A stretch of 64,000 nucleotides of DNA from Rhizophagus irregularis (lineage: Eukaryota): the NCBI RefSeq assembly GCF_026210795.1, contig NC_089430.1:5084001-5148000 (forward strand). The letters are read 5' to 3'. The notes beneath the pieces were generated by a model that searched no databases, was not told the DNA's origin, and saw nothing but the letters and a program-made list of their open reading frames with translations. The translations under genes were made by a program, and so were the position numbers. The number at the start of each line of letters is the position of its first letter. Position 1 is the first letter of the stretch. This document shows, piece by piece, positions 6,336 through 62,940 of the stretch.

Positions 6336-6399
6336 AGAATCTATATAAAAAGTGAATCGCAGTACCGCAACTCACTTTTTTTATATAGTAGAATCAATA

Positions 6400-6508
6400 G
6401 TTTCAGGTCAACAGGTCAATCAGGTCAGGTCAATCTTCATACCTGACCTGAATTTTTTTCAAAAATCTCATACCTGACCTGAATTTGGCTGACCTGTTCG
6501 GAGCTCTA
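6400..6508. mobile_element. Isolated right end of a hAT-like element
   Basis: Ends ...GACCTGTTCGGAGCTCTA (reverse complement TAGAGCTCCGAAC) with ACCTG/CAGGT subterminal repeats. Resembles the end at 11519 and the TAGTGCTCC ends of 21321-24056. No partner end found. Confidence 0.6.
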
Positions 6509-12900: not shown

Positions 12901-13480
12901 AACCTAGATTCACGTTGCCCCTCCGGACTCCGGTGAATTTCACTTTAATCAAAATTTTTAAATTTATCCCAGTAAAATTCACCAGATGATTTCATATTAC
13001 ACAAACGCGTAGCACATATTTTATTTTTTGCTTTCTTGTAGTATTATTTCCAAAATGGCCAGCTTTTTCTGGAATTTCTTAAGGTAAGATTTTTTTATTT
13101 TCTTATTACTTCGCTAGTTTAATGTTCTTTTTCTTTATGCTAACTTGTTAACTTGTTTTTCAGAAAACAACAATTTCAAATAACTTCAAAGAGTTTAAGG
13201 TAAGACTCACTTTTATTACTAGTATTTTGCTATTTTATTGTTTTCTTTATTGAAAATGATACTAACAGTTTCTTTTATTTTCTATCATCCACTTTATTCC
13301 CTTTTCATTTTCTATATCCATTTCACTCTCTTTTTATTTATTTTCTATTATTTTTTTCGCTCCTTTTGTTTTTATTATTTCATTATTCCCTTCGCCTCCA
13401 TTTTATTTTTCTATCATGATTCCCTTTGTTCTTATTTTGTTTTTAATTATCCTTTTCATTTATCATCGTCCCTTTTGCTT

Positions 13481-34200: not shown

Positions 34201-34535
34201 TCAATCATTCGTCCAGCTAAAGCGGGTATTGATGTTTCACCTATTTCAAGTTGACGAACTTGAGACGAAATTGTACCTTGCGAATCTTGGTATTCTTGAT
34301 ATCTAGAATCGTGAATTTCTTTTGTGCGAGAATCCACCAAGTTGCCATCACAATCAGGACAATTACAAACTACTAGTTTTCTTTTATTACTTGTTGGTCT
34401 AGCAGAAGATACTATTTCTTCGTTTATTATACCAGAAATTGATCTATTTCTACGAGTAGAAGATGGCTGATTTGAAGGTGATTCTTCATCATCAAGATCG
34501 TCAAGTATACTAGAGACTGACCTTTTTCTGCTCAT
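31280..34535 (-). CDS. En/Spm (Tnp2/Transposase_21-like plus DUF4218-like) transposase, 2 exons, ~1058 aa
   Basis: Open exons 34535-32192 and 32112-31280 joined by a 79-bp GT-AG intron give ...FERMNGILGSLPNSNRKIESELMRR.... Motifs DIYDGQVW, NLDWFQPY, NLPRDIRF, CDIPAARK, DPMHCLFLG, YGPLYAFWCFSFER. Confidence 0.9.
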
Positions 34536-35074
34536 TTGTTTAGTATTTGAATAAGTTTAATAAGTTTGGCAAAATCCAAATTTGTAAAAAGGCCGATTTT
34601 TATAAAATTTGGAATAACACAAAATTTGTATAATTTGTATGTATAATTAATGTAATCCTGGCTTCTATGATTATTTCAATAATTTTTTAGGATTTAATAT
34701 TTTTTTTTCGCAAATTTGGCAATTTTATATAATAAATTTGCGAATTTTCTAATTAATATACTTTTAAAAATTGCAATATGATTTAAGCTTATTTTACAAT
34801 AAAAAGCTTATTTTTAATAAAAAGCTTATTTTTAAAATAAAAAGCTTATTTTATTTTAAAATAACTTTTATTTACAAGATAATCACTTTATCATCCCTTT
34901 ATCATTTTCGGATGCCAAACAAACCTTATCAAAAGAAACTGTAAATTTTAGCGAAAGTTGAAAAGTAACAATTTTGTATTAATCGAAGTGGTATTGCTAT
35001 AATAACAATATATTTTTGATTTTACTGCAAATTTCGACAAAGTATAACTTGCCGCATTAAAGTATATCAAATTT

Positions 35075-35549: not shown

Positions 35550-38095
35550 ATGTCAAATAATAGCAATAATAAAAAAAACAATAAAAAAAATAACAAACAA
35601 AAGCAACAGAGGTTTCAAGAAGAAACACCTGACGAAGGATCTAATCGTCAACGGGAAGAACAGAAGAAGAAAGTAATCCGAATGAGACAATTGACAAAAC
35701 CAATAAGTCGACTAGCAAATCGTCACCCACCAAGTCAAACAAACAAAAGCAGCAAAGGTTTCAAGAAGAAACACCTGACGAAGGATCTAATCGTCAACGG
35801 GAAAGAACGGAAGAAGAAAGTAATCCGAATGAGACGAGTGACAAGACCAATAAGTCGACTAGCAAATCGTCACCCACCAAGTCAAACAAACAAAAGCAGC
35901 AAAGGTTTCAAGAAGAAACACCTGATGAAGGATCTAATCGTCAACGGGGAAGAACGGAAGAAGAAAGTAATCCGAATGAGACGAGTGACAAAACCAATAA
36001 GTCGACTAGCAAATCGTCACCCACCAAGTCAAACAAACAAAAGCAGCAAAGGTTTCAAGAAGAAACACCGAGCGAAGGATCTAATCGTCAACGGGGAAGA
36101 GCGGAAGAAGAAAGTGATCCGAATGAGACAAGTGACAAAACCAATAAGTCGACTAGCAAATCGTCACTCACCAAGTCAAACAAACAAAAGCAGCAAAGGT
36201 TTCAAGAAGAAACACCTGACGAAGGATCTAATCATCAACGGGGAAGAACAGAAGAAGAAAGTAATCCGAATGAGACGATTGACAAAACCAATAAGTCGAC
36301 TAGCAAATCGTCACCCATCAAGTCGATCCTCAAATCTGCAAAGTCGACTAAGCCGACTCAAGAAGAGTCTGACGATGAGGTTATAGAAATTGATCCGCCA
36401 AATATTCCTAAAGGTAATTGAATTTTGGAAAATTGCTGATTGACATGTACGATAATTAATAATTTTTATAGATCAACAAGAGATGTTATCGGAAATGAAA
36501 AAACGATATGGGAATATTCGAATTCCACAAAAATTCGTATTAGTGGTTAAAGACGATCAAGGTAATGAAAGGATGATCGATGACGACGATACTGATTTAG
36601 AAGCAGGTACGATTTTGACTTCATTCGTATAAATTCAGAATTATTCGTAAAAAAATATTACTATTAATAAAATTCTTTATTTAGAAAATCTAAAATTAAA
36701 GAAACAAATTGAAGAAGTACAAGTAGAGAATGCAAAGCTTCAACGCGAAAATAACCGATTATTCGACGAAAATCGTTTTTTGACTCGAATAAACGAGGCC
36801 TTTGCAGACGAGAATGATGATCTACGCGAAAGCTTAAACAGGTATTCGAGAATCCGTCTGCCTAAAGCCATTCATAGGCAGACGGATCTCGAACAGCCGG
36901 CAAAACGTCAAAAAAGAATTAAGACAAAAAAGTTCGAGCGATACGAGGAAGAATCGGAGGAAGAACGGTCTGGTTCTAACAATAATGATGAGTACGACGA
37001 AAAAGAAGCTAGGGTATATTAATTTTATTTGTCTGATTCAGTTATTTAAAATTGCAGTATTGAGTAATTAAGTACCGGTTATCATTATTTGATTGTTATA
37101 TTTAGGCTGAAATGAAGTCTATTTTGAAAACCATCGATGAAACTCGAGGACTAGATTACAATGAAACGTTCAATAGCGCGAAAAATCTCAAGATTCGTCG
37201 TAAGCTAGTCCCTGAATTGCGTTCAGCCCTTGCTCCGTGTTTTCCCGCTTCGAATAAGCAACTTACAAAATGGTTGGGTTGTCTCCACAAGTCTCGTCGT
37301 TCTCATCAAAGATTAATGGATAGGGGAAAAGCCGATGAAAATAAACACCGGGTGCACTCAAACAATCGAGTACACGACGTTAGTAATGATTTATAATTAT
37401 TATGCTGAATTTTATTCCGATTATGTATTGAATTTTATTCAAATTATAACGTATTTTAGAAGAAAATCCGCCGAATTAAGGCGGCAAAGAGATTATATAG
37501 TTTTGACGATGAACGGATAACAAAATATGATAAGCGTAGATTACTAAAGATGTTATCCAATCGCTTATTTCATTCTCCAGAAATAAGCGAGACAGACGAA
37601 GAAGACCCAACAAAGTCCATAATCGCTATTTACGACTATTCGTGGAGATCTGATGAGGTTAGAACTTCTGAATCTTGATTTTTCAGACGAATCGCTGGAT
37701 TTAATTTTTATATTTTATTGTTTCTTCAGCTTAAAAATTTGCTACGAAATGTACTCGATGTACACTCGTCAAATAAGTCGAAATTAATACGCGAACGTAG
37801 ATACGACGACGAGGTACAAAAATACGACCGACCACATCCGTCGAATGCTCCCGAATGGTCTTATATCGTACAACAACAAGATTTAATATTCGATACTGAT
37901 ATCGATCAGGGTTTAATCACTGAATATGATGAAGAAGAAGAAGAAGTTAGTAGAGGGACAACACCAGCAACTGGCAACACCACCGAAAATGATGAAGACC
38001 ATAACAAGGAAGGAGAAGAAAAACCATCAAAATCAACGGTCGGCGACAATCATAATAATTCAGATTCTGATTTACATATGGACGACGCGCAATGA
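35550..38095 (+). CDS. Transposon accessory gene copy 2 (unknown function), 6 predicted exons, one apparent frameshift
   Basis: Predicted exons 35550-36412, 36472-36606, 36685-37013, 37106-37378, 37460-37657, 37730-38095, all GT-AG. Exon 1 holds five 147-bp (49-aa) repeats; a missing base near 35652 shifts the frame. Confidence 0.75.
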
Positions 38096-42059: not shown

Positions 42060-43850
42060 TGCGTAGCAGAAGACTAGCAGAAGTATCATGGAAAGTATTT
42101 ATATATATTCATAGGCTTTATGAATATTTATAATATTAATAAATTATACATGAAAAAGCTTTGCAACAGCTGCTGGAAAAATGAACGCGTACTTTCAATA
42201 TAGTAGAAGTATGGAAGTTATTTATATTTCATAATTTCATTAATATTCGTAGGTTTACAACTATTTCATAATATTAATAATTGTTCATGGAAAGTTTTGC
42301 GTACAATATAATGGTAAAGGTATGGAAAGTATTTATACTCCATAATTTAACTATTTTATATAATATTAATAATTATAACTGTTGGTCTAACTTTTGAACT
42401 TATAAAGTAAAAATAAAATTAATGCGTGCTCTCAATGTAGTAGTGTAGAAGGAATGGAAGGTATTTGTACTTTGTAATTTCGTTAATGTGTTTACGTCTT
42501 TTTTATAAAAAATATTAATAATCACGCATAATGAACTGTTGGTTTAACTTTTTGAACTTGTAGAAATAAAGTTAACGCGTGCTTTCAATGTAGTAGTGTA
42601 GAAGGAATGGAAGGTATTTGTACTTTATAATTTCGTTAATGTTCGTATGTTTACGTCTTTTTTATAAAATATTAATAATCACATAAAATGACAACTGTTG
42701 ACCCAACTTATTGAACTTGAATATTCGTTGATGCAGAAATGAATTTAACGCTCTCAACGTAGTAGTGTAGAAGGAATGGAAGGTATGTACTTCACGATTT
42801 CGTTAATGTTCGTATGTTTACGTCTTTTTTTATAAAAAATATTAATAATCACGCATATTGAAACTGTTGGTTTAACTTTTGAACTTGTAGAAATAAAGTT
42901 AACGCGTGCTCTCAACGTAATAGTGTAGAAGAGATGGAAGGTATGATCACAACTGTTGGTCCAACTTTTTGAACTTGTAATTGTTTGTTTGACGTAGTAG
43001 TGTAGAAGGAATGGAAGGTATGTACTTCACGATTTCGTTAATGTTCATATGTTTACGTCTTTTTTATAAAAAATATTAATAATCACGCATATTGAAACTG
43101 TTAGTTTAACTTTTTGAACTTATAGAAATAAAGTTAACGCGTGCTCTTAACGTAATAGTGTAGAAGGGATAGAAGGTATGTATTCCTTAATTTCGTTAAT
43201 GTTCGTATGTTTACGACTTTTTAATAATAATCACAACTGTTTGGTCCAACTTTTTGAACTTGTAATGTTTGTTTGATGTAGAGATGAATTTAACGCTCTC
43301 AACGTAGTAGTGTAGAAGGAATGGAAGGTATGTACTTCACGATTTCGTTAATGTTCGTATGTTTACGTCTTTTTTATAAAAAATATTAATAATCACACAT
43401 ATTGAAACTGTTGGTTTAACCTTTTGAACTTGTAGAAATAAAGTTAACGCGTGCTCCCAACGTAATAGTGTAGAAGGGATGGAAGGTATGTATTCCTTAA
43501 TTTCGTTAATGTTCGTATGTTTACGACTTTTTAATAATAATCACAACTGTTTGGTCCAACTTTTTGAACTTGTAATGTTTGTTTGATGTAGAGATGAATT
43601 TAACACATGTTCTCAACGTAATAGTGTAGAAGGAGTGGAAGGTATGTACCTCACAATTTCGTTAATGTTCGTAAGTTTACTTTTTTTTTATAAAAAATAT
43701 TAATAATCACGCATAATGATAACTGTTGGTCTAACTTTTGATCTTGTAATATTCGTTGATGCAGAAATGAATTTAACGCATGCTATCAACGTAGCAGTGT
43801 AAAAGGACTGAAGGTATGTACTTCATAATTTTGTTAATGTTCGTACAACT
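42060..43850 (+). repeat. Tandem 100-180 bp units built around TAGTGTAG|AAGGAATGGAAG|GTATGT
   Basis: About 10 clear copies at 42430-43820, with diverged copies upstream. Confidence 0.85.
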
Positions 43851-44870: not shown

Positions 44871-46083
44871 TAAGTATATTGTTATATGATTGTAATTGGC
44901 CAACGTCTAGCCATAGGTCACACAACTTGCCATTTGCATTATCGAGTTGCCGATTTAATTCGTCAATTCTTCCCCATAAATAGGCATTTTCTTCTCAGAG
45001 ATCATATATTTCTAAAAAAACGTTAAAGTTGACCAGAACTCTAAAATGAATACAAAAGTCAATTGTAGCTCACCATTTACATCTCTAGTCCAATTACTAC
45101 TATAAGGTTCACGTATAATTGGCGTTAATTCTCTCCTATATAGTTCAGCGGTACGTACATTGCTCCTATACGGTTTGGCGACGTGTACATTGCTCCTATA
45201 TGGTTCGGTGGTGTGTGTAATGGGCATTAATTCCATTGTCGGGCTGGTAGTGTAGTCGCTACGCTCCTCCACCTCGGCCTCACGGCTTCGCAGTACCTCC
45301 TTCCCCCTTCGTGGGGCAGGTTTACCTGCCACAGTACCATGGTCTGCCATGGTATTTTTCCACTTATTTTTTTTTCTATATTTTTTCTTATATATAACTT
45401 ACTATGGCAACTATGGCAACTATGGCAACTATGGCAGACTACTAAAAAACAGAATAAAAACACGAATAAAGCCAAAATCAGACAGAATCTCCTGCCATAG
45501 TATCTGCCATAGTATGAAAAATCTTATGATAATACTATGGCAGCCATAGTCAGCTCCTCAGACCCTAAAACCCAATTTATGCTATGACTACCCTTTATAC
45601 ACTCACTTATACTTCCAAGTATGACCCCCATATGTCCTGAACTATGGCACCTGAACTATGGCAGCATGTCCCGAACTATGGCAGCCGAAATATGACACCC
45701 AAACTATGGCAGCTGAACTATGACCCCCAAGTATGACCACTCTATATCCCGAACTATGGCAGCTGAACTATGGACACCTTAGTCAGCCCCTCAGGCTCCA
45801 AAACCCGATTAAAGCTATAATTACCCTTTATACACTTACCTGGACCTCCAAGTATGTCCCAAACTATGACCACTAAACTATGACTACCAAATTATGACCA
45901 CTGAACTATGGCCACTTGCTCCGTCAGAAAAAATAGTAATTGAACAATAGGTAAACCATAAGTAATATATAAGAATACCTAACACGAAACATGCATATGA
46001 TAAACTTGCATGCAGCTACTTCTCTTGCCAAAGATCTTGGACTTGATCTTGTAGACATCTATGGAATCTGTAAATAGACCCAA

Positions 46084-46434
46084 ATGCAAGCATCACCTCT
46101 CAATGACCCAGACATAGTAGCAGGGATGTTCAGAAACCTTCCGATCAAAAAATTTGGAAAGCACCTCAAGATAAACAGACTCTGGTACAACTGTTGTAAA
46201 GCTGAGTTGTGGAAGCGGCATGAGAAAACCGATGAGGCATACGACAAGGCAGTAGAAAAGAGGGAAAAAGCGGGGGATGCTCTTGGTCAATCATATGAAA
46301 GGGAGGGTATTGGAAATCATGAACTTCATGAGCTTAAATGGAAGGAGTATCATAAGGCTTGTAAAGAGAAAATAGAAGCCAGAATAGAGCATGGTATGGT
46401 AAGGCAAGCTCTTGAGCAGTGTGGATTTTACTAG
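46084..46434 (+). CDS. Small intronless protein with F-box-like N-terminus and charged helical tail
   Basis: LNDPDIVAGMFRNLPIKKFGKHLKINRLWYNCCKAELWKR resembles the F-box pattern; clearly paralogous to 46659-47171. Confidence 0.55.
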   Translation: MQASPLNDPDIVAGMFRNLPIKKFGKHLKINRLWYNCCKAELWKRHEKTDEAYDKAVEKREKAGDALGQSYEREGIGNHELHELKWKEYHKACKEKIEARIEHGMVRQALEQCGFY

Positions 46435-46658
46435 ATATATGTGGATTGAAAAAGAGGAAGGGAAGATTTAGAGCAGTCGTAAAGGTTTATGGTTTATAGG
46501 TTTTTTTTTATCCCTAGAAGATAACCAGGTATGACCGGAGGACCGCAGGACTGCAGGATCGCAGGAGGATAACCAGATAGGAGTGCAGATCTTTGGAAAA
46601 AATATATTCGGCAATTGAAGATTAGGTAGACCATAAGTAACCTATAAGGACAAACAAC

Positions 46659-47171
46659 ATGTATACCGCAGAAAAGTCAGCAACAATCTTCAGCTGCACA
46701 GTCCCTGATCTTATAGATATCAATAGGGAAATACTTCTTGAGCAATGCAGAAAGCAAAGCCCTAAGATTGTGGATATCTTCATTGCGGTCTGTCCGATTA
46801 ATAAATTTGGCAAACATCTATTACATAACCGCACTTGGTATACTTGGTGTAGAGACGAATTATGGAAACGGCATAAAGAAGCTGAACAAGTATATGGCAG
46901 AGCGGCAGATGAAGACAAGAAAGCTGGGAAGGCTTATTGGCAAACATTCGAGGGTGATAGAAAGAATGTCAATAAAGCTTACGAAGAATGTGAAAAAGCT
47001 CACGATAAAAAATATACCACCTTTAAAAAAATGGTAACCATAGAACAAGCTATTCTCCGTTGTAGTTTTGTAACAAGAAAATCTAACTGGGGAGAGTACT
47101 ACTGGATGATGCACAACTTCGAGTTATTTAAGAAAGATGATAAAGATGATAAATATATTATTATAAGTTAG
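46659..47171 (+). CDS. Paralog of 46084-46434, F-box-like
   Basis: PKIVDIFIAVCPINKFGKHLLHNRTWYTWCRDELWKRH aligns with the previous ORF, as does the tail (EQAILRCSF versus RQALEQCGF). Confidence 0.55.
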   Translation: MYTAEKSATIFSCTVPDLIDINREILLEQCRKQSPKIVDIFIAVCPINKFGKHLLHNRTWYTWCRDELWKRHKEAEQVYGRAADEDKKAGKAYWQTFEGDRKNVNKAYEECEKAHDKKYTTFKKMVTIEQAILRCSFVTRKSNWGEYYWMMHNFELFKKDDKDDKYIIIS

Positions 47172-48568: not shown

Positions 48569-51500
48569 TTACAATTGAGAAATATCAATTTGTAGTGATT
48601 CTATTTAATAGAAAGAAATTAGTATTTTTTAAATAATAAACTGATATCATTTTATTAAGCAATACCTGAAGAATTCGAACTAATCACATCATCATTTTTT
48701 TTGTAAGAATCATCAGAATTATCTGGCTCAGGAAAATTACTTAATTGTAGAATATCACTTTGTAAGGATTCTATTTAATGAATTAAAAATTTATTAATAT
48801 ACTTACAATTAGTTTTATTTTTTATAAAACATACCTTTTGTTTTTATGTTAAATTTGTCATTTTTCTTATAAATATCATTTGAATTTTTTAGTTCATTGA
48901 AATTATTATTTTCCAATTGAGAAATATCAATTTGTAAGGATTCTATTAAAGATTAAACCTGATCAGTATTTTTTACAATTAATATGAAAATTTTTTTTAC
49001 TAATAATACCTGAAAATTTCATGCTAATTATATTATCATTTACTTCATAATAATCGTCAGAATTTTTTTGCTCAGGAAGATTACTAAAATCAAGTAATCT
49101 ACTGGTATAAACAGCTTCTGAATGTGTTACATAAGATATTCCTAAATTTGTCGAAGTTATACTGCTATTTGATGAACTTTTGTTTATTTCATCAATTTCC
49201 TTAATTTGCTTTTGTATACTTGTATAATTAATAATATTACTATTATTTATCAAATCAACTAATTCTCTAAGCCATTGACTTAAAGTTTTTTTAATTTCTT
49301 CTGCATTTGGTCGATTTGATTGATTTGCATCCAAGCATCTTTTAATTAAATGCACAATCAAATAAGGTACTTTAATATTAAACCTTGGTCGAAGTCCTTT
49401 ACAAATTTTCATTGTTAAATCTATATCATGACCTACATCATAATACGGAGGTAATCCAGAAATTACTTCATACATTACTATACCAAAACTATAAATATCT
49501 GCAGCTTTTGTATAATTTTGTCCACGTAAAATTTCAGGGGCAATATAAGGTAAAATACCATATATTTTGCTTTTTGCATTTTCCGATGTATTATAATCAG
49601 CAGGTTTACATAATCCCATATCAGTTATACAAGTGAGATTTTTGAGCCTTAATATATTACCAATATGCAAATCTCGATGAATTAATTCTATTTCATGAAT
49701 ATTTTTGAGTCCATGTGCAATGCTATGTAAATAATTAATCTTATCACCCCAATTCAATTTACTATAATTTGTATCTAAATAATTTCGTAAACTTCCATTT
49801 TCTGCATAATCTAAAACCATAATGTAATTTTCAGTTTTTGGGTCTTGAGTTATTCCATAAAATTTAATAAAGCGTTTATGCAAATTTACTTTATGATGTA
49901 ATGTAATCTATAAATATTATAAATAAGTATCAATACTTAAATTAAATATTTATTAAGAATAGTTAAATAGCTTACCTCATTCATAAATTCCAATGTAACA
50001 TTTCTTGAATTATTTAAACTTTTCAGAGCTACAACCATGTTTTGATCCTTTCTTTTCCAATTTTGATTATGATCATCCCATTTATCAATATAACCATCAA
50101 ACCATTTTGCTTTATATACTTTTCCAAACCCACCTTTTGCAATATATTTAATATCATAAAATCTATCATAAGGTATCCATTCTAATACATTTTTTACACC
50201 ATAATAACAAGCATGTTCTGATAGCTGAGTATCTTGAATAAATTTATCGATAACATTATTACCACTAGTCAAATTTTTAAAATGATACACTTTATTACAT
50301 TTTTCACATATATTCTCCAAAACGACCATATAGTTCTTGGTTTCTGGATCTTGAGTTATTCCATAAACTTTAGAAGGTACTGCAATCTATAATGTATTTA
50401 AAATTAAAAAATTGGTAAAAATTAAAATTTCAACTATTTGTTTTTTTAAGCATCTGGCAATTTTTTTTTTTTTCACAAATGGTACAATACAATATGATTA
50501 ATTTGTATTACAATTCACAAAAAAAATGAAACTTTTAATAAATTTATTATACCTTATTTATAAGTTTTAATGTAATACTTGCTGGATTATTTAAAATTTT
50601 CAGAATTACAAACATATTTTGACATTTTCTTTCCTTTTGATTTTCATTATTCCATATATTTATATATCCATCAATCCAATTTGCTCTGTAAATTTTGCCT
50701 AACTCATCATCTTCTGCAATATATTTAACATCATAAAGTCTATCATAAGGTATCCATTCTAATGCATGTGATATTTCACTATCCTTATGAACCAATAACT
50801 GAGTATCTTGAATAAATTTATCAATATCATTATTACCACTAGTCCAATTTTTAAAATTTCGTTGAAAACGCATTGAATCACATGCTTCACTACATTTTTC
50901 ACATTTATCCTTTAAAACTACCATATAGTTCTTGGTTTCTGGATCTTGAGTTATTCCATAAACTTTATAAAGTACTGCAATCTACAATATATTAAAATAG
51001 AAATATTAGTAAAATTAACTATTTGTTTTAAATTAACTGGCAATTTTTTTTCACAAAATGGCATAGTACAATGTGATTAATATATATCATAATTCACAAA
51101 AAAAATGAAACTTTTAATAAATTTATTCTACCTTATTTATAAGTTTTAATGTAATACTTGCTGGATTATTTAAAATTTTCAGAATTACAAACATATTTTG
51201 ACATTTTCTTTCCTTTTGATTTTCATTATTCCATATATTTATATATCCATCAATCCAATTTGCTCTGTACATTTTGCCAAACTCAATATATTTAACATCA
51301 TAAAGTCTATTGTAAGGTATCCATTCTAATGCATGTGATATTTCACTATCCTTATGAACCAATAACTGAGTATCTTGAATAAATTTATCAATATCATTAT
51401 TACCACTAGTCCAATTTTTAAAATTTCGTTGAAAACGCATTGAATCACATGCTTCATTACATTTTTCACATATATCCTTTAAAACTACCATATAGCTCTT

Positions 51501-54500
51501 GGTTTCTGGATCTTGAGTTATTCCATAAACTTTATAAGGTACTGCAATCTACAATATATAAAGTCAGAAGTATAAAATATTCAACCATTTGTTTCTTAAA
51601 ATAACTTTTTTTTTTCGCAAAATGGCACAAAAAAAATTGAAAAATTTGATAAATTTATTATACCTTATTTATATATTTTAATGTAATACTTGCTGAGCTA
51701 TTTAAATTTTTCAGAATTACAAACATATTTTGATCTTCTCTTTCCCAATTTTGATTTTTACCATTCCATTTATTTAGACGTCCATCAATCCAATTTGCTC
51801 TGTACACTTTGCCAAACTCTTCATCTTCTGTAAAATATTTAACATCATAAAGTCTACCATAAGGTATCCATTCTAATGCTTTTTCTACCTTATATTTATT
51901 ATGATATGATAGCTGAATATCTTGAATAAATTTGTTGATATCATTATTACCACTAGTCCAATTTTTAAAATTTCGTTGAAAGCCTATTGAACTACATGTA
52001 AAATTACATTTTCCACATTTATTGAAATCCAAAACCACCATATAGTACCTGGTTTCTGGATCTTGAGCTATTCCATAAACTTTATAAGGTACCGCAATCT
52101 ACAATATATTAAAATAGAAATATTAGTAAAATTACCTATTTGTTTTAAATTAACTGGCAATTTTTTTTCACAAAATGGCATAGTACAATGTGATTAATAT
52201 ATATCATAATTTGCAAAAAAATGAAACTTTTGATAAATTTATTATACCTCATTTATATATTTTAATGTAATACTTGCTGGGCTATTTAAATTTTTCAGAA
52301 TTACAAACATATTTTGATCTTCTCTTTCCCAATTTTGATTTTTACCATTCCATTTATTTAGGCGTCCATCAATCCAATTTGCTCTGTACACTTTGCCAAA
52401 CTCATCATCTTCTGCAATATATTCAACATCATAAAGTTTATCATGAGGTATCAATTCTAATGCATGTGATATTTCACTATCCTTATGAACCAATAGCTGA
52501 GTATCTTGAATAAATTTATCAATATCATTATTACCACTAGTCCAATTTTTTAAAATTTCGTTGAAAATGTATTGAATTACACACATTATTACATTTTTCA
52601 CATATATCTTCTAAAACTACCATATAGTTCTTGGTTCCTGGATCTTGAGTTATTCCATAAACTTTATGAGATACCGCAATCTACAATATATAAAGTCAGA
52701 AGTATAAAATATTCAACCATTTGTTTCTTAAAATAACTTTTTTTTTTCGCAAAATGGCACAAAAAAAATTGAAAAATTTGATAAATTTATTATACCTTAT
52801 TTATATATTTTAATGTAATACTTGCTGGGCTATTTAAATTTTTCAGAATTACAAACATATTTTGATCTTCTCTTTCCCAATTTTGATTTTTACCATTCCA
52901 TTTATTTAGGCGTCCATCAATCCAATTTGCTCTGTACACTTTGCCAAACTCTTCATCTTCTGTAAAATATTTAACATCATAAAGTCTACCATAAGGTATC
53001 CATTCTAATGCTTTTTCTACCTTATATTTATTATGATATGATAGCTGAATATCTTGAATAAATTTGTTGATATCATTATTACCACTAGTCCAATTTTTAA
53101 AATTTCGTTGAAAATGTATTGAATTACACACATTATTACATTTTTCACATATATCTTCTAAAACTACCATATAGTTCTTGGTTCCTGGATCTTGAGTTAT
53201 TCCATAAACTTTATGAGATACCGCAATCTACAATATATAAAGTCAGAAGTATAAAATATTCAACCATTTGTTTCTTAAAATAACTTTTTTTTTTCGCAAA
53301 ATGGCACAAAAAAAATTGAAACTTTTGATAAATTTATTATACCTTATTTATAAATTCTAATGTAATACTTGCTGAATTATTTAAAATTTTCAGAATTACA
53401 AACATATTTTGCTCTTTTTTTTCCCAATTTTGATTTTTATCATTCCATTCATTTAGGCGTCCATCAATCCAATTTGCTCTGTACACTTTGCCAAACTCTT
53501 CATCTTCTGTAAAATATTTAACATCATAAAGTCTACCATAAGGTATCCATTCTAATGCTTTTTCTACCTTATATTTATTATGATATGATAGCTGAATATC
53601 TTGAATAAATTTGTTGATATCATTATTACCACTAGTCCAATTTTTAAAATTTCGTTGAAAGCCTATTGAACTACATGTAAAATTACATTTTCCACATTTA
53701 TTGAAATCCAAAACCACCATATAGTACCTGGTTTCTGGATCTTGAGCTATTCCATAAACTTTATAAGGTACCGCAATCTACAATATATTAAAATAGAAAT
53801 ATTAGTAAAATTACCTATTTGTTTTAAATTAACTGGCAATTTTTTTTCACAAAATGGCATAGTACAATGTGATTAATATATATCATAATTTGCAAAAAAA
53901 ATGAAACTTTTGATAAATTTATTATACCTCATTTATATATTTTAATGTAATACTTGCTGGGCTATTTAAATTTTTCAGAATTACAAACATATTTTGATCT
54001 TCTCTTTCCCAATTTTGATTTTTACCATTCCATTTATTTAGGCGTCCATCAATCCAATTTGCTCTGTACACTTTGCCAAACTCATCATCTTCTGCAATAT
54101 ATTCAACATCATAAAGTTTATCATGAGGTATCAATTCTAATGCATGTGATATTTCACTATCCTTATGAACCAATAGCTGAGTATCTTGAATAAATTTATC
54201 AATATCATTATTACCACTAGTCCAATTTTTAAAATTTCGTTGAAAATGTATTGAATTACACACATTATTACATTTTTCACATATATCTTCTAAAACTACC
54301 ATATAGTTCTTGGTTCCTGGATCTTGAGTTATTCCATAAACTTTATGAGGTACCGCAATCTACAATATATTAAAATAGAAATATTAGTAAAATTATCTAT
54401 TTGTTTAATCAACTGGCAATTTTTTTTTTTCACAAAATGGCATAGTACAATGTGATTAATTTATATACAATTCACAAAAAAAAATGAAACTTTTGATAAA

Positions 54501-57500
54501 TTTATTATACCTTATCTATATATTTTGATGTAACAATTGCTGGGTTATTTAAATTTTTCAGAATTACAAACATATTTTGATCTTCTCTTTCCCAATTTTG
54601 ATTTTTATCATTCCATTCATTTAGGCGTCCATCAATCCAATTTGCTCTGTACACTTTGCCAAACTCATCATTTTTTGTAATATATTTAACATCATAAAGT
54701 CTATCATAAGGTATCCATTCTAGTGCTTTCTTTACATCATCATGAGCATCTGATAGTTGGGTATCTTGAATAAACTTATCAATATCATTATTGCCACTAG
54801 TCCAATCTATAAATGTCTGTTGAAAATGCATTGAATTACACACTTTATTACATTTTTTACATTTATAATTCAAAACCATCATATAGTTCTTGGTTTCTGG
54901 ATCTTGAGTTATTCCATAAACTTTATAAGGTACTGCAGTCTACAATATATTAAGTAAAAATATCAGTAAAAGTAAAATTTTTACCAATTTTTTTTCACAA
55001 AATAACACAGTACTGTACAATTATATTAATTAAATGAAACTTTTAATAAATTCATACCTTATATATAAATTCAAATGAAATACTTGCTGGATTATTTAAA
55101 ATTTTCAAAATTACAAACATATTTTGATCTTCTCTTTCCCAATTTTGATTTTTACCATTCCATTTATTTAGGCGTCCATCAATCCAATTTGCTCTGTACA
55201 CTTTGCCAAACTCATCATCTTCTTCAATATATTTAATATCATAAAGTCTATCATAAGGTATCCATTCTAATGCACTTTTTACCTCATAATAAGTATGTGC
55301 TGATAGCTGAGTATGTTGAATAAATTTATTGATATCATTATTACCACTAGTCCAGTTTTTAAAATTTCGTTGAAAAAGTATTGAAGTACATGTATAATTA
55401 CATTTTCCGCATTCACTGAAATCCAAAACTACCATATAGTTCTTGGTTTCTGGATCTTGAGCTATTCCATAAACTTTATAAGGTACCGCAATCTACAATA
55501 TATTAAAATAGAAATATTAGTAAAATTATCTATTTGTTTAATCAACTGGCAATTTTTTTTTTTCACAAAATGGCATAGTACAATGTGATTAATTTATATA
55601 CAATTCACAAAAAAAAATGAAACTTTTGATAAATTTATTATACCTTATCTATATATATTGATGTAACAATTGCTGGGTTATTTAAATTTTTCAGAATTAC
55701 AAACATATTTTGATCTTCTCTTTCCCAATTTTGATTTTTATCATTCCATTCATTTAGGCGTCCATCAATCCAATTTGCTCTGTACACTTTGCCAAACTCA
55801 TCATTTTTTGTAATATATTTAACATCATAAAGTCTATCATAAGGTATCCATTCTAGTGCTTTCTTTACATCATCATGAGCATATGATAGTTGGGTATCTT
55901 GAATGAATTTATCAATATCATTATTATCGCTAGTCCAATTTTTAAAATTTTGTTGAAAATGTATTGAATTACACACATTATTACATTTTTCACATATATC
56001 ATTCAAAACCATCATATAGTTCTTGGTTTCTGGATCTTGAGTTATTCCATAAACTTTATAAGGTACTGCAGTCTACAATATATTAAGTAAAAATATCAGT
56101 AAAAGTAAAATTTTTACCAATTTTTTTTCACAAAATAACACAGTACTGTACAATTATATTAATTAAATGAAACTTTTAATAAATTCATACCTTATATATA
56201 AATTCAAATGAAATACTTGCTGGATTATTTAAAATTTTCAAAATTACAAACATATTTTGATCTTCTCTTTCCCAATTTTGATTTTTACCATTCCATTTAT
56301 TTAGGCGTCCATCAATCCAATTTGCTCTGTACACTTTGCCAAACTCATCATCTTCTTCAATATATTTAATATCATAAAGTCTATCATAAGGTATCCATTC
56401 TAATGCACTTTTTACCTCATAATAAGTATGTGCTGATAGCTGAGTATGTTGAATAAATTTATTGATATCATTATTACCACTAGTCCAGTTTTTAAAATTT
56501 CGTTGAAAAAGTATTGAAGTACATGTATAATTACATTTTCCGCATTCACTGAAATCCAAAACTACCATATAGTTCTTGGTTTCTGGATCTTGAGCTATTC
56601 CATAAACTTTATAAGGTACCGCAATCTACAATATATTAAAATAGAAATATTAGTAAAATTATCTATTTGTTTAATCAACTGGCAATTTTTTTTTTTCACA
56701 AAATGGCATAGTACAATGTGATTAATTTATATACAATTCACAAAAATAAATGAAACTTTTGATAAATTTATTATACCTTATCTATATATTTTGATGTAAC
56801 AATTGCTGGGTTATTTAAATTTTTCAGAATTACAAACATATTTTGATCTTCTCTTTCCCAATTTTGATTTTTATCATTCCATTCATTTAGGCGTCCATCA
56901 ATCCAATTTGCTCTGTACACTTTGCCAAACTCATCATCTTCTTCAATATATTTAATATCATAAAGTCTATCATAAGGTATCCATTCTAATGCACTTTTTA
57001 CCTCATAATAAGTATGTGCTGATAGCTGAGTATGTTGAATAAATTTATTGATATCATTATTACCACTAGTCCAGTTTTTAAAATTTCGTTGAAAAAGTAT
57101 TGAAGTACATGTATAATTACATTTTCCGCATTCACTGAAATCCAAAACTACCATATAGTTCTTGGTTTCTGGATCTTGAGCTATTCCATAAACTTTATAA
57201 GGTACCGCAATCTACAATATATTAAAATAGAAATATTAGTAAAATTATCTATTTGTTTAATCAACTGGCAATTTTTTTTTTCACAAAATGGCATAGTACA
57301 ATGTGATTAATTTATATACAATTCACAAAAAAAAATGAAACTTTTGATAAATTTATTATACCTTATCTATATATTTTGATGTAACAATTGCTGGGTTATT
57401 TAAATTTTTCAGAATTACAAACATATTTTGATCTTCTCTTTCCCAATTTTGATTTTTATCATTCCATTCATTTAGGCGTCCATCAATCCAATTTGCTCTG

Positions 57501-58340
57501 TACACTTTGCCAAACTCATCATTTTTTGTAATATATTTAACATCATAAAGTCTATCATAGGTATCCATTCTAGTGCTTTCTTTACATCATCATGAGCATC
57601 TGATAGTTGGGTATCTTGAATGAATTTATCAATATCATTATTATCGCTAGTCCAATTTTTAAAATTTTGTTGAAAATGTATTGAATTACACACATTATTA
57701 CATTTTTCACATATATCATTCAAAACTACCATATAGTTCTTGGTTTCTGGATCTTGAGTTATTCCATAAACTTTATGAGATACTGCAATCTACAATATAT
57801 TAAAATAGAAATATTAGTAAAATTATCTATTTGTTTTAATCAACTGGCAATTTTTTTTTTCACAAAATGGCATAGTACAATGTGCGTGATTAATTTATAT
57901 TATAATTCACAAAAAAAAAAATGAAACTTTTGATAAATCTATTATACCTTATCTATATATCTTGATGTAATACTTGCTACGTTATTTAAAATTTTCAGAT
58001 TTATAAACATATTTTGACCTCCTCTTTCCCAATTTTGTTTTTCATCATTCCATTTATTCAGGTGTCCATCAGTCCAATTTGCTCTGTACACTTTGCCAAA
58101 TTCATCATCTGCTGCAATATATTTAATATCATAAAGTCTTTCATAAGGTATCCATTCTAATGCATTTCTTACCATATATTCATTATGATCTGATAGCTGA
58201 GTATTTTGAATAAATTTATTAATACCATTATTACCACTCGTCCAATTTTTAAAATTTTGTTTAAACCGTATTGCGTTACATTCGTAATCACAATCACATG
58301 ACTTAATCAGCTTTTTAACGCTTTTGATAAAGGAATCCAT
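48569..58340 (-). CDS. Giant TKL-type kinase with 15 tandem Cys-module/N-lobe exons, ~2500 aa if all exons are used
   Basis: Exons: 58340-57948, 57789-57362, 57211-56777, 56625-56191, 56072-55644, 55492-55058, 54939-54511, 54359-53928, 53777-53343, 53227-52796, 52680-52248, 52098-51664, 51548-51132, 50981-50553, 50386-49976 (all phase 0), catalytic exon 49907-49010 (HRDLHIGN, DMG, APE), tail exons 48942-48835, 48770-48666, 48600-48569. Exons 2 and 11 each carry a 1-bp indel. Confidence 0.85.
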
Positions 58341-59584
58341 TGAGAGTTTTTCTACTAAAATAAATACATATAAAAGGCGGAAATTAAAAAAATTTCAGTA
58401 GTAGTAGTAAGAAAACAATTTCGCCCGATGCTTTAATAAATAGAAGAACAATACTTATGCATAATTATGTATTGCTGATCAGCCGTAATGTGGGCTGAAT
58501 TTTTTACAACCGATTATTTGTCGATCATTTTCAGTTTAAACGCACTTGATATAACACAATTGTTAAGAAAATTGAGGAATGTAATCATTCCAAAGTCATA
58601 AATTAGATACATAGACAGAGCATTTTTATAGGTTATTTATGGTATATATTATATGTTTATAATTTATATCAGTCAATGATATATTGAAGTAAGAACAATG
58701 CTTATGCATAATTACGTATTTCTGATCTACCATGTAATGATTGTAATGTGGATGAGAATTCTATAAAAAATTCGACCGATTATTTGCCGATCATTTTTAT
58801 TTTAACGCACGTGAATTCTTCTTGTTAGAATTAAATAATTTGGAAACCTTTTGAACTAAAATATAATGTATTCATTTTAAAGCCATAACTTAGATACATA
58901 GATGAGCATTTTTAGGTTTGCCATATATTATATGTTTATAAAGTTATAAGCTAATTATTCGCTATCTAAAACTTAATACTGTAATAAATATCAGTCAATA
59001 ATGTATTTAACCATGAAAGAAAATCATCATGTGGAAATAACTTTTCCTTCTAACTTTCTGAAAACTTGAGAGCAAAAAAAAATTGAATTGAAAAGAAGTA
59101 GAATCCTACCTAATATACAGAACATACAATCCTCACTTTTTATTTAATAAAAAGTATGTGAAAAAAAAATTATTTTATTTATTTACTGCGGATTTTTAAT
59201 AAAAATGACGGAAAACGGAAGGAGTTTCTTCAAATTTTCGATTTTTGGTTTTTTTTATTTTTGATTATAAAATTAAATTTAAGCACTTATATTAATTTAT
59301 CATGTGATATATTGTGGAGTATTTTTATTGGTTGATGGATTTTCCACTCAGATGAACCAATTTTTTTTTGTCGTCTTATTATTCCTATTTCTAATTTTAT
59401 GGAACTATTTAGAAGTTAGAACTTCCTGTCATGACTAAGACAACTTGTTAATAATAAAATAACACCGGCTGCTTTATCTTCTGATAATTTCCAAGTCAGA
59501 CTAGCTCGATCACGAATTCCGTACTAACAAATCCATACCGCCCAGTCAGTGGCCGAACTACCCAAAATACAAAATAAGACGTTA

Positions 59585-59794
59585 CAACTGATTTCATAAT
59601 GTGCGAGACACTTAGCAAATTTTAAAGAACTCGGAAGTATTCGGTAAAGCTTGATATAAAATAAAAATTATACGCTAATTTTGGAGTACTATTCCGAGAA
59701 TGGTGGTATAATTTTATCTTATTTTGAACTTTTACCGAATATTTCCGAGTTCTTTAAATTTTGCCAAGTGTCCCGTACATTATGAAATCAGCTG
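59585..59794. mobile_element. Tc1/mariner-type MITE with TA target duplication
   Basis: TA|CAACTGATTTCATAATG...CATTATGAAATCAGCTG|TA, with ~65-bp imperfect inverted arms. Confidence 0.82.
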
Positions 59795-61432
59795 TAAACA
59801 AACCATAGTTCACTAATATTATATCACGTTAAAATTTATAATTATAGAATATCTGAATATTTGTCAAATTTTAATAATAATAAATTTAGAAAATAAAATA
59901 AAATAAAATAGGTCAATTAAAAAAGATCAATTAAATAATTAAAATTAATTGTTACCTAAATTTTTTGCAAAATTTTCTTTTTTAAATAGTCGGTCAGAAT
60001 TGACGGCAAAGGTGCTTTAGGTAGGTTATTTTGGTATAGGTAGAACAAATTTGCCGATTAATCGTTGATTAAAATAAACCTTCTGCGTATTTGTAATTTG
60101 TTTCGCAAAAAAAATAACAAAAAATTAAATTTGATTTCATCATAAAATCATAAAGAACGTAATTACAAAAATACCTGCTGAGATTAATTATATAAATTCT
60201 TCTCTTTCAGCATTATCCTAAAAAAAAAGAATCATTGATTTTTACATTGCAAAAAAATTCATTGGTTTTCCATCACATTATTTGATATAGATTTAGGATC
60301 GGAGACGGATTCGGAAAATCAAGTTAAAACGGGGTTTTCATACAAACAATGTAGGAATTATTTATTTTAATTTTGGGTTAATTCCTATAAAGGAAACCAT
60401 TTCCCATAATGAGATTTGTAGACTGCCTTATTGTCAAAATGATATTATCGGTAATCCCCGTGATTTGATAAAAAATAAACAGCACCAACAAATCCAAATA
60501 ATCTAGTTTAACGATATTCAACATCAAATTTTGCGAAAATTACGAAAAATCGGATTATCGGAGTAATTTTTATCATACAAAAATTATAACATTTCCGAAT
60601 TTCTAAACACGGTTATAACAATTCCGAATCTCCGAAATCTGAATGATACTTTTGGTATAATTTTAATCGAATTAAATAAATTAAATATGTACGAAATTTT
60701 TTTTTTTAATTTTTAAAAAGTAATTAATACAAAACATAAACCTAAATTCAGCAATCCACATAATGAACGGATAAAATTACACTTGAATGACAAAAATATC
60801 ATTTATTTCGGCCGAAACAAAGTTTTTTTTTTTTATAATATTTACGACATATAAGGATCATCTTTTGTTTCCCAATTTGTTGAATCATTACCTAATATGG
60901 TATAGTAAATTATTTTTCAAACCGAATCCTGTTTCACAAGTCAGGGGTTTTTTAAATGGATATCAATTTAAGGTAACCAGACTAACTAAATAATGGGAAA
61001 CAGGAAAATGATTTTATTTGATTGCAGATTACATAAGGGATACAAGGGGGTAAAATAAAGAACAATATTTAAAAATGAAATTTTTAATTAATTTTTTTTT
61101 TTTTTTTAACCTTTTTAATCGACACGAAACAAAAATTTTATTTGCTGATTTATAAGATTACAAAGATTATAATAAAATCTTATCAAATATCTCAGTTCTT
61201 TGTATAATAAAATTTTAATTGGAGGATGAATGAGATCCATTATCAATAATTCTTTCCTTTTTTAAAAAACAATAAAGTACCTTAAAGATAATTTTGATTC
61301 GTTGCGAGTAACCATTATTATTATTTTTTTTTTAAAAATATATATATATATATATATATTCCTTTTTTTACGTTCCCTTTTTTTTTTGAACGAATTCTTC
61401 AAAAAAAAACCTAAAACCCAAGAAAAAAAAAC

Positions 61433-62940
61433 ATGGCCAATATTCGTAGAGAAGCTGTTAATGCTGCATATGATAAAGCATACGCATTAATAAATAATGA
61501 TGATATGCATAAAAGATTTAAAGAAATAAAAGAATTTGTTAATAATGATGAAACACTTAGTAAAGAAGAAAAATTAGAAGTGATAAAAAGGTTTGATGGA
61601 GATTATGATTATTTTAAAGTTGTTAAGAATGATGGAATCAAAAGAGATTGTGAGAATTGTAAAGAAAAATGTTTAGCAACATTATATTGTGAAAATTGTG
61701 TTAGAAAATATTTAAAATCCGAATTTTCAAATTGGACATCTGAAAATAAAATTATTGATTCTTTAATACAAAAATGTCAACAAGAATCATTAATTCCATA
61801 TATGATATTTGAATGGATTCCATATGATAGACTTAAAAATATCAAATTTTTGGTTAAAGGTGGTTATTCTGATATTTATACAGCTGATTGGGAAGATGGA
61901 TGTTATAAAGAATGGGATCTTGAAGAAAAAAAATTGAAAAGGTCTGGAACTAGTAAAGTAGCACTTAAAAGATTAGAAACTATTGAAGGTGATAATAAAA
62001 CTTGGCTTGAAGAGGTAATTATAACTTTATGAAAAGTATTTTTTTTTAAATGTAATATTAACTTTAACATATAATATTTTCCATATATGTAGGCTTTGTA
62101 TATTAGTAATAAATGGGGAAGTATTGTCCAATGTTATGGTTTTACAAAAGATCCAACTGATGACAAATTTATGCTCGTCATGAATTATATGGATACGGAT
62201 TTAAGGAGATATTTACAAAAAAATCGTAATCAAATTACATGGAAAACGAAAATTCAAATTATTTTTGAAATTGTTAAAGCACTTTCTAGAGTTCATGAGG
62301 AAAATTCAGTTCATAAAAATTTACACTCAGGAAATGTATTATATTTAAAAAATAAGAATGATTGGTATATTAGTGATGTTGAATTTTATGGACCTGCTAA
62401 TAAACCATTAAATAGTGTATATGGAAATCTTTCTTACATGGCACCTGAAGTTATTTATAAAAGTGAATACAGTTTTAAATCCGATATTTATTCTGTTGCA
62501 ATACTTATGTGGGAAGTTTTATCAGAACAACCACCATTTCTTAATAATAATAATGATCAAGATCTTGCATTAAATATTGTTAATGGGACAAGACCGAAAA
62601 TATTACCAGGAACTCCTGAAATATTTAAAAAATTAATGGAAGAATGTTGGGATGCAAATCCGGAAAAAAGACCTGATATTCAGACACTTTGGAACAAAAT
62701 CGAAGATATTAATAAATCAATTCATGAAAATAACGATAATTGGAAAGATGTAAATATTGATATAAACCCTAATATTACTGAATTAACTTATAATAATAGT
62801 AAGGTTTATACTTTTAAAGATTTACCTAAACCAAAAAATGCCACCAAAGGTGATGTATTATTAAATTAATCGACTTTTACTGATGATTTTACAGATTATT
62901 AATCAGAAAAAAATATACACATATATTTTTAGATATCTAA
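61433..62940 (+). CDS. TKL-family probable pseudokinase, 3 exons
   Basis: Exons 61433-62014, 62093-62849, 62933-62940. CENC...CENC and NWTSEN...WIPYD N-module, VALK, APE, DIYS present, but HKN replaces HRD and DVE replaces DFG. Confidence 0.85.

What the first reader, a model, noticed from the sequence alone, without database searches (positions are those of the whole stretch)
49976..58340. Kinase built from 15 tandem N-lobe exons: 14 degenerate modules feeding one catalytic domain
Seen: 15 phase-0 exons of about 390-435 bp. Exons 2-15 start with YGITQDPETKNYMVVL (the strands that follow helix C), then CxxC...C, WTSGN...WIPYD and the start of the next N-lobe. Each N-lobe is therefore completed by the following exon, giving a chain of whole N-lobes. 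Modules 1-14 have an acidic or deleted glycine loop (e.g. IAEDDEFGKVY); only module 15 has IAKGGFGKVY, VALK and EFMNE, and it splices to the single C-lobe. Established: TKL kinases are greatly expanded in Glomeromycotina. Inference: half a kinase fold has been recycled as a repeat sensor, decoy or scaffold domain; I do not know this architecture as described.
Basis: partly seen in the sequence, partly recalled or inferred. Interest (0 to 1): 0.9.

Follow-up and report, generated by a model that had tools for sequence, protein, structure and literature searches.

The report
Kinase with chain of half-kinase repeats
In a root-symbiotic fungus, a kinase gene carries 14 duplicated exons, each predicted to fold as the front half of a kinase that has lost its ATP-gripping loop; the same layout recurs in over a hundred predicted proteins of related fungi, and the chain likely serves as a variable binding or decoy array controlling the one kinase at the end, although this particular copy has two reading-frame breaks.

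Summary
Largely confirmed, and it is a family. The minus strand holds 15 tandem exons (58340-49976, GT-AG introns, cut at the same point in helix C), then one kinase C-lobe exon. The architecture does not depend on this copy: 137 of 147 retrieved homologues with a C-lobe have 3-17 N-lobe units before a single C-lobe (Rhizophagus irregularis, clarus, diaphanus; long arrays also in Acaulospora), including an in-frame 15-unit paralogue. AlphaFold2 folds each repeat as a helical hairpin plus a five-stranded N-lobe that matches RIPK-type N-lobes. Repeats lose the glycine loop (23 of 641 keep it, against 85 of 87 terminal units) and the alphaC-beta4 loop; the core is under purifying selection, and loops vary and are shuffled between copies. 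Repeats group with their own subfamily's catalytic N-lobe, which suggests repeated origin or homogenisation. No Pfam family covers the repeat and ten literature searches found no description. Nearest precedents: wheat RWT4's single partial-kinase duplicate and the C-lobe-only KIND domain. Function is inferred, not shown.

The parts
57948..58340 (-). Exon 1 (ATG at 58340): Cys knuckle, WTSGN hairpin, beta1-beta3 and first half of alphaC of repeat 1
   Evidence: 393 nt, in frame
57362..57789 (-). Exon 2, repeat module with a one-base deletion near 57559 (frame break)
   Evidence: run X20 has a 111-nt contig identical to 57530-57640 across the break
56777..57211 (-). Exon 3, repeat module; 5' two thirds identical to exons 4/6, 3' third nearest exons 2/7 (mosaic)
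56191..56625 (-). Exon 4, repeat module, identical to exon 6
55644..56072 (-). Exon 5, repeat module, 98% identical to exon 2
55058..55492 (-). Exon 6, repeat module
   Evidence: last 126 aa identical to P0112
54511..54939 (-). Exon 7, repeat module
   Evidence: all 143 aa identical to P0112
53928..54359 (-). Exon 8, repeat module, keeps alphaC Glu; near-identical to exon 11
53343..53777 (-). Exon 9, repeat module
52796..53227 (-). Exon 10, mosaic repeat module (first third = exon 11, middle = exons 9/12)
52248..52680 (-). Exon 11, repeat module with one extra A in the run at 52546-52551 (frame break; may be a sequencing error)
51664..52098 (-). Exon 12, repeat module
51132..51548 (-). Exon 13, repeat module with glycine loop deleted (12 nt)
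   Evidence: an X20 contig stops at this donor site and runs on for 37 other letters
50553..50981 (-). Exon 14, repeat module, 98% identical to exon 13
49976..50386 (-). Exon 15: completes repeat 14, then the catalytic N-lobe (AKGGFG loop, VALK Lys, alphaC Glu); Cys knuckle partly deleted
49010..49907 (-). Exon 16: end of alphaC, alphaC-beta4 loop, beta4-beta5, hinge and the single C-lobe (HRDLHIGN, DMG, APE) plus start of tail
   Evidence: Pfam PF07714 132.6 bits, cut-off 23.1; donor at 49010 matched by a 67-nt CT..AC skip in X17 and X20
48569..48942 (-). Three short phase-1 tail exons (48942-48835, 48770-48666, 48600-48569 with stop), each opening with an ESLQ-type repeat
   Evidence: the matching tail of P0074 is modelled at low confidence

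Best explanation
This is a Rhizophagus protein kinase gene in which one exon has been duplicated 14 times, each copy predicted to fold as a non-catalytic unit (likely zinc knuckle, helical hairpin, kinase N-lobe), and the chain likely works as a variable protein-binding or decoy array that would switch the single, probably active and probably cytosolic kinase at its end. Shown: the exon array, its recurrence across species, loss of the glycine loop and of the alphaC-beta4 loop in repeats, a conserved core with variable loops, and mosaic shuffling of copies. Inferred origin: the ancestral gene had two exons split inside helix alphaC; a duplication joining the beta4-beta5 start of exon 2 to the cysteine knuckle of exon 1 made a symmetric phase-0 exon that completes the previous N-lobe and starts the next, and unequal crossing-over or gene conversion then expanded and mixed it. 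Inferred mechanism: without a glycine loop, a C-lobe or the loop that ties the N-lobe to a C-lobe (general kinase knowledge), the repeats cannot bind ATP productively; they present kinase-like surfaces with variable loops, so proteins that target the fungus's kinases (inhibitors or effectors from other organisms, or partner signalling proteins) would bind them and change the terminal kinase's activity. This copy may itself be broken in this strain.
For: Family: 137 of 147 retrieved proteins with a C-lobe have 3-17 N-lobe units and one C-lobe; the C-lobe follows the last N-lobe in 144 of 147. In-frame 15-unit paralogue P0312; 7-unit P0318 is held identically under two accessions. Fold: repeats of P0074 mostly at pLDDT 65-89 per 10 residues with the same strand order as the catalytic N-lobe; P0112, identical to exons 6-7, mean pLDDT 84.7, pTM 0.70; best matches are kinase N-lobes (Foldseek RIPK2, prob 1.0, about 105 columns; VIA-align RIP3 Z 8.8, rmsd 2.5, 76 aligned). 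Systematic loss: GG[FY][GAS] in 85 of 87 terminal units but 23 of 641 repeats; the 9 alphaC-beta4 columns are gapped in 94-98% of repeats against 18-29% of terminal units. Selection: in the third of columns most conserved among other family members, 14 amino-acid changes on 116.8 sites against 10 silent on 27.2 (ratio 0.33, p 0.008); 7 of 9 distinct indels among exons 2-15 keep the frame. Shuffling: exons 3 and 10 are mosaics. Catalytic motif HRD-type in 115 of 139 and no hydrophobic segment in 136 of 139 proteins with 3 or more units. Two-exon single-module genes with the same alphaC intron in 4 of 28 metagenome loci. Precedent: the KDup partial kinase duplicate of wheat RWT4 is needed for effector binding (10.1101/2024.04.30.591956, passages); fungal NLR sensor repeats are shuffled and diversified (PMC10197012, section 13).
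Against: No ligand or partner is known and no binding was shown. The excess of amino-acid change in the variable third (61 on 116.2 sites against 9 silent on 27.8, ratio 1.62) is not significant (p 0.11), and the pooled pairwise ratio of 0.84 is also what weak constraint gives. Two exons of this copy are out of frame, and the exon 2 break is matched by a contig of another run. No piece of any run links the array to the kinase exon. Homologues are gene predictions, and one gene appears with 2, 6 or 7 units in different annotations (P0320, P0008, P0318). The acidic glycine loop is not general: 35% of 358 repeats have a net acidic loop. These kinase families sit in methylated, transposon-rich regions (PMC8647823, passages), where decay is common.
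Confidence: 0.5

Rival explanations
1. Tolerated expansion: the symmetric exon duplicates easily in a transposon-rich compartment; the repeats need only stay folded and in frame, and bind nothing specific.
For: Pooled dN/dS-type ratio 0.84-0.92; unit number varies from 2 to 15 among the 22 closest kinase domains; two frame breaks and an in-frame deletion in exon 15 of this copy; CACTA-type and Plavaka transposase ORFs and a truncated paralogue in the same window.
Against: Purifying selection on the core (p 0.008); arrays in at least two kinase subfamilies and in Acaulospora; the same two elements are lost in nearly all repeats while terminal units keep them; His co-occurs with the three-Cys pattern.
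Confidence: 0.25
2. Structural or autoregulatory array: the repeats form a rigid rod that spaces, oligomerises or autoinhibits the kinase, like a pseudokinase beside a kinase, with no outside ligand.
For: Two adjacent units are modelled with pTM 0.70, compatible with a set relative orientation; W/I/Y core, beta3 Lys (82% of repeats) and the beta4-beta5 motif are conserved.
Against: Unit number is very variable and loops are hypervariable, which a fixed ruler or a fixed self-contact would not need; whole-protein pTM is only 0.55.
Confidence: 0.15
3. Splice cassette: every exon ends at the same phase-0 point in alphaC as exon 15, so any one could be spliced straight to exon 16 and give alternative N-lobes (pseudokinase isoforms) or arrays of different length; skipping would also bypass the two broken exons.
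For: Identical donor position and phase in all 15 exons; skipping exons 2 and 11 leaves an open frame of 2230 codons including the stop.
Against: No skipping joint with clean intron ends among the 15 joints shown of 142; repeats carry their own beta4-beta5 in the next exon and a shortened loop, which fits chain assembly; gene models join exons in series.
Confidence: 0.08
4. Assembly or annotation artefact: the array is a mis-assembly of paralogous kinase exons.
For: Exons 4 and 6, and introns 4/6, 5/7 and 10/12, are identical, so the exact copy number may be off; no piece laid spans the array.
Against: Exons 6-7 occur in order and letter for letter in P0112 from a separate 1006-bp contig; soil metagenome contigs L001 and L007 each hold three successive module exons; arrays occur in three Rhizophagus species and Acaulospora.
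Confidence: 0.02

Closest known systems
KDup, the integrated partial kinase duplication of wheat tandem kinase RWT4 (10.1101/2024.04.30.591956; passages read)
   Same: An N-terminal partial copy of the protein's own kinase N-terminal part, non-catalytic, placed before an active kinase; there it is needed for effector binding.
   Different: KDup is one copy, lacks the active-site lysine, and sits in a kinase-pseudokinase protein of plants. Here whole five-stranded N-lobes with the lysine are repeated up to 16 times, each one exon, before a single C-lobe; no sequence homology was tested or is claimed.
KIND domain (kinase non-catalytic C-lobe; Spir, very-KIND, PTPN13; PMC3415841, passages)
   Same: Half of the kinase fold reused alone as a presumed or proven protein-interaction module.
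   Different: KIND is the C-lobe, in one or two copies, in non-kinase proteins. This is the N-lobe, in long arrays, attached to its parent kinase.
Expanded PF07714/PF00069 kinases of Glomeromycotina (PMC3886924, one passage; PMC8647823, passages)
   Same: The catalytic domain belongs to this expansion; the knuckle-WTSGN-N-lobe first exon is shared with single-module members (neighbour at 61430; loci L011, L012, L015, L017).
   Different: The passages seen report kinase numbers, methylation and transposon links, not N-lobe arrays; databases name these proteins only 'kinase-like' or after yeast kinases.
Fungal NLR sensor repeats (WD40, TPR, ANK; PMC10197012, section 13)
   Same: Near-identical internal repeats shuffled within and between genes, conserved core with variable positions, attached to an enzyme or effector domain.
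   Different: No NACHT or NB-ARC domain; the repeat is about 140 aa and derived from a kinase, not 20-40 aa; positive selection here is not significant.
Tandem kinase-pseudokinase proteins (plant TKPs; JAK JH2-JH1)
   Same: Non-catalytic kinase-derived parts beside an active kinase.
   Different: Those have two or more whole kinase folds; here 145 of 147 retrieved proteins with a C-lobe have only one.

Membership tests
Protein kinase, PF07714/PF00069 | Kinase domain above Pfam cut-off | tested here: met
   Exon 16: PF07714 132.6 bits (cut-off 23.1), PF00069 122.3 (31.7)
Protein kinase, PF07714/PF00069 | Catalytic motifs: glycine loop, beta3 Lys, alphaC Glu, HRD, DFG-like, APE | tested here: met
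   AKGGFG, VALK, MNE in exon 15; HRDLHIGN, DMG, APE in exon 16
Protein kinase, PF07714/PF00069 | Phosphotransfer activity | not testable with these tools
   Needs an assay
TKL kinase group | Placement among TKL kinases by kinome phylogeny or group profiles | tested here: inconclusive
   PF07714 outscores PF00069 and fold matches are tyrosine kinases and RIPKs, but no group-level tree was built; the TKL label is recalled, not from a call
Tandem kinase protein (TKP) | Two or more complete kinase or pseudokinase domains | tested here: not met
   One C-lobe in the gene and in 145 of 147 homologues with a C-lobe
KIND domain proteins | Isolated kinase C-lobe | tested here: not met
   Repeats are strand-rich and align with kinase N-lobes, model range about 56-152
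KDup-type integrated partial kinase duplication | N-terminal partial copy derived from the protein's own kinase domain | tested here: met
   Repeats are 74-83% identical in DNA to exon 15 and group with their own subfamily's catalytic N-lobe
KDup-type integrated partial kinase duplication | Binds a foreign effector and is needed for activation | not testable with these tools
   No ligand known
NLR / STAND receptor | Central NACHT or NB-ARC domain | tested here: not met
   None in Pfam scans of 5 exons of the gene or of P0074, P0312, P0125, P0271; the exons leave no room for one
Membrane receptor kinase | Signal peptide or transmembrane helix | tested here: not met
   Crude hydropathy scan: a 19-aa segment above 1.8 in 3 of 139 proteins; no dedicated predictor was run
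Zinc-binding knuckle (C3H or C4) | Four ligands in tetrahedral geometry binding Zn | tested here: inconclusive
   His 18-20 residues after WTSGN in 468 of 493 units with C-x2-C-x3-C but 9 of 194 with CxxC..CxxC (two lineages, not independent counts); model geometry could not be read; P0271 has no knuckle

The most novel reading that the evidence does not exclude
Arbuscular mycorrhizal fungi have a large, undescribed class of intracellular receptor kinases whose sensor is a polymer of their own kinase N-lobe: an exon-shuffled array of decoy half-kinases, evolved more than once, that catches kinase-targeting proteins of bacteria, fungi or the host plant and fires the terminal kinase, filling the role that NLR repeats and integrated decoys play elsewhere.
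Probability: 0.3. Interest if true: 0.88.

Novelty: new variant of a known kind. Interest (0 to 1): 0.7.

Why it matters
The kinase C-lobe is known to live alone (KIND); a free-standing, repeating N-lobe would be its missing counterpart and shows the N-lobe can act as an independent folding and repeat unit. It also gives structure to a standing question: what the very large kinase expansion of arbuscular mycorrhizal fungi is for. A sizeable part of it carries variable, shuffled arrays that standard annotation does not see (no Pfam family), and these give defined modules to express, crystallise and use as bait for ligands from endobacteria, competing fungi or host roots.

Tried and rejected
No whole genome is held, so no genome-wide count was possible. 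Sequencing runs: no RNA holder listed on record; RNA status of X15, X17, X20 is a guess by the tool. Only one laying of contigs is available: it shows 32 of 6198 pieces and 15 of 142 joints, and leaves the exon 11 break and the array-to-kinase link open. Search for a full-length database copy of this gene among 832-2650 aa proteins found none; only exons 6-7 match exactly. Pfam finds no family above cut-off for repeat exons; the listed non-kinase hits in long homologues have no stretch passing on its own. The hairpin and knuckle were barely tested by the fold search and no fold is claimed for them. ESM Atlas returned only unnamed Mucoromycota kinase clusters. Complex prediction of one repeat against the terminal kinase of P0074 gave 'no answer'; not used either way. 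The 87-row tree did not finish its careful search. Three look-ups in earlier findings returned nothing. Rejected: 'acidic glycine loop' as a family hallmark (35% of 358 repeats); compensation between the two frame breaks (stops lie between them); significant positive selection (p 0.11); a link of the OCT59 gene models to long-read annotation (tag not found in PMC10234402).
Full report
OBSERVATION. The minus strand from 58340 to 49976 holds 15 exons of 393-435 nt separated by GT-AG introns of 68-166 nt, each ending at the same codon of helix alphaC, followed by a kinase exon at 49907-49010 and three short phase-1 tail exons ending in a stop at 48569. The exons are 74-100% identical. Exon 16 matches PF07714 at 132.6 bits; none of the three pure repeat exons scanned reaches any Pfam cut-off. 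Only exon 15 has the glycine loop, VALK and the alphaC Glu together. Of 9 distinct indels among exons 2-15, 7 are multiples of three and these 2 are not.

IS THIS COPY INTACT AND EXPRESSED? Twenty of 24 listed runs hold part of the stretch; none is on record as RNA. I laid four guessed-RNA runs, kept as contigs (32 of 6198 pieces and 15 of 142 joints shown). Of the 8 pieces shown per run, those of X15 and X17 contain no intron base and those of X20 two bases, while 4 of 8 in X16 run into introns. X17 and X20 show a 67-nt CT..AC skip exactly at intron 16 (side only 20 letters), and an X20 piece stops at the exon 13 donor and continues with 37 other letters. This is a fair hint of spliced transcripts from exon 1 to the 3' end in two studies, blurred by many paralogues; no piece links the array to the kinase. 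One X20 contig (depth 4.37) is identical to 57530-57640, a stretch unique in the window, and crosses the exon 2 break with about 29 letters on the short side, just under the tool's 31-letter mark. So the exon 2 break is probably real in at least one sample; the exon 11 break is untested and sits in a homopolymer of a unit otherwise near-identical to exon 8. This copy may be a decaying gene, or may rely on skipping: without exons 2 and 11 the frame is open for 2230 codons.

IT IS A FAMILY. One repeat exon finds 228 proteins of 253-2000 aa at E 1e-10; the 120 listed are all Rhizophagus irregularis, R. clarus or R. diaphanus. The exhaustive search finds 583 50%-clusters at 1e-10; of 20 more distant ones looked up, 17 are Rhizophagus and 3 Acaulospora morrowiae. 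Of 324 proteins in hand, 147 have a C-lobe; 137 of these have 3-17 N-lobe units and one C-lobe, 8 have 0-2 units, and 2 have several C-lobes; the C-lobe follows the last unit in 144. The set was chosen by similarity to the repeat, so it is no census. P0112 equals exons 6-7 letter for letter and comes from a separate 1006-bp contig named R. irregularis. The closest kinase domain (88%) is P0312, an in-frame 2409-aa paralogue with 15 units. These are gene predictions, and one gene is modelled with 2, 6 or 7 units in different annotations. In 28 soil metagenome loci, L001 and L007 each hold three successive module exons, and L011, L012, L015, L017 show the simple two-exon gene with the same alphaC intron, as does the neighbour at 61430.

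WHAT THE REPEAT IS. AlphaFold2 of P0074 (three repeats plus kinase, 50-row alignment) gives every unit two helices, then beta1-beta2, an inserted hairpin, beta3, a shortened alphaC and beta4-beta5, as in the catalytic N-lobe; mean pLDDT 74.2, pTM 0.55, tail disordered. P0112 folds at mean pLDDT 84.7, pTM 0.70. Its best structural matches are kinase N-lobes: RIPK2 by Foldseek (8 matches at E 0.001 or less, about 105 columns) and RIP3, MLKL, RIPK2 by VIA-align (Z 8.7-8.8, rmsd 2.5-2.6, 76-79 aligned), a middling Z that here agrees with clear sequence homology to exon 15. Across 728 regex-defined units, GG[FY][GAS] is in 85 of 87 terminal and 23 of 641 repeat units; the beta3 Lys in 97% and 82%; the alphaC Glu in 98% and 60%; the nine alphaC-beta4 columns are gapped in 18-29% and 94-98%. 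The terminal loop is always 8 residues (64 of 64), the repeat loop 4-11. By general kinase knowledge the alphaC-beta4 loop ties the N-lobe to the C-lobe, so repeats have lost both the ATP lid and the C-lobe tether. A His follows WTSGN in 468 of 493 units with C-x2-C-x3-C but 9 of 194 with CxxC..CxxC, suggesting a C3H zinc site replacing a C4 site; this is one or two evolutionary events, not hundreds, and some arrays (P0271) have no knuckle.

EVOLUTION. Exons are mosaics: exon 3 matches exons 4/6 in its first two thirds and exons 2/7 in the last; exon 10 matches exon 11 and then exons 9/12. Using 10 of 14 repeat exons (exon 1, the two broken exons and duplicate exon 6 left out) and column variability taken from 542 segments of other proteins, the conserved third has ratio 0.33 (p 0.008), the variable third 1.62 (p 0.11, not significant), all columns 0.92; the counts are crude in AT-rich, recombining DNA. 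Variable sites cluster around the knuckle, the loop after the hairpin, the former glycine loop and the inserted hairpin. In a 23-row quick tree with the glycine loop masked, units split by kinase subfamily, not by repeat against terminal, and holding the 13 repeats together is rejected (p-AU 0.0007); I named that group after seeing the unfinished 87-row tree, and there is no root, so this means either several origins or continuing homogenisation from the catalytic unit.

MECHANISM. Shown: array, recurrence, systematic losses, conserved core, shuffling. Predicted: fold of each unit, active terminal kinase (HRD-type motif in 115 of 139), cytosolic location (no hydrophobic segment in 136 of 139). 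Inferred: binding function. I put 0.5 on a variable binding or decoy array that regulates the kinase, 0.25 on tolerated expansion, 0.15 on a structural or autoinhibitory rod, 0.08 on a splice cassette, 0.02 on artefact. Independently, there is about a 40% chance that this copy is non-functional in this strain.

WHAT IS KNOWN. Ten full-text searches found no description of N-lobe arrays in these fungi. No supplement was read, and subscription papers on these genomes (recalled: Tisserant 2013, Chen 2018, Morin 2019) were not searchable; a domain figure there could pre-empt novelty. The nearest precedents are the single KDup of wheat RWT4 and the KIND domain; this is not a tandem kinase, KIND protein or NLR by their defining features.

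VERDICT. A real, apparently undescribed repeat architecture: new variant of a known kind (kinase with integrated partial duplication), taken to a scale and regularity not seen in the precedents. Interest 0.70; if the arrays prove to be decoy sensors (probability 0.3), 0.88.

Noticed in passing
window 61430-62900 (+): A single-module relative: one CxxC..CxxC knuckle, WTSEN hairpin and N-lobe exon, intron in alphaC, then the kinase exon (PF07714 114 bits; HKN in place of HRD). It shows the unexpanded gene plan 3 kb from the array.
   Followed up: partly
window 5346-6393 (-): Truncated paralogue: second half of the C-lobe and tail exons, 81% identical over 1008 nt to the gene's 3' end; upstream of it lie a Plavaka fragment (6430-6915) and tnp2-type transposase ORFs (8230-11010) instead of the 5' part.
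   Followed up: partly
window 31280-34556 (-): 796-aa open frame with Transposase_21 (tnp2, CACTA-type) above cut-off plus a 284-aa downstream frame; a related, broken copy lies at 8230-11010.
   Followed up: partly
window 48569-49085 (-): The tail is a second exon-duplication system: phase-1 exons of 108 and 105 nt repeating an ESLQIDISQL-type motif, with variable copy number in homologues.
   Followed up: partly
window 59582-59797: 216-bp imperfect inverted repeat (81% self-complementary), 1.2 kb upstream of the ATG; could be a small transposon.
   Followed up: no
window 13450-14990, 35592-36324, 42377-43845 and others: Many minisatellites: a 30-bp unit open in several frames, a 147-bp unit in a lysine/serine-rich ORF, and units of about 70-190 bp elsewhere.
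   Followed up: no
window 46078-46434 and 46641-47171 (+): Two adjacent, related short ORFs sharing a FGKHL..N..WY..C..ELWKRH pattern, no Pfam family above cut-off.
   Followed up: no
proteins P0271, P0276, P0008/P0318: P0271 (16 units) has lost the cysteine knuckle from its repeats; P0276 has more than one C-lobe (a true tandem kinase in the same family); the terminal unit of P0008/P0318, like exon 15 here, has a degraded knuckle.
   Followed up: no
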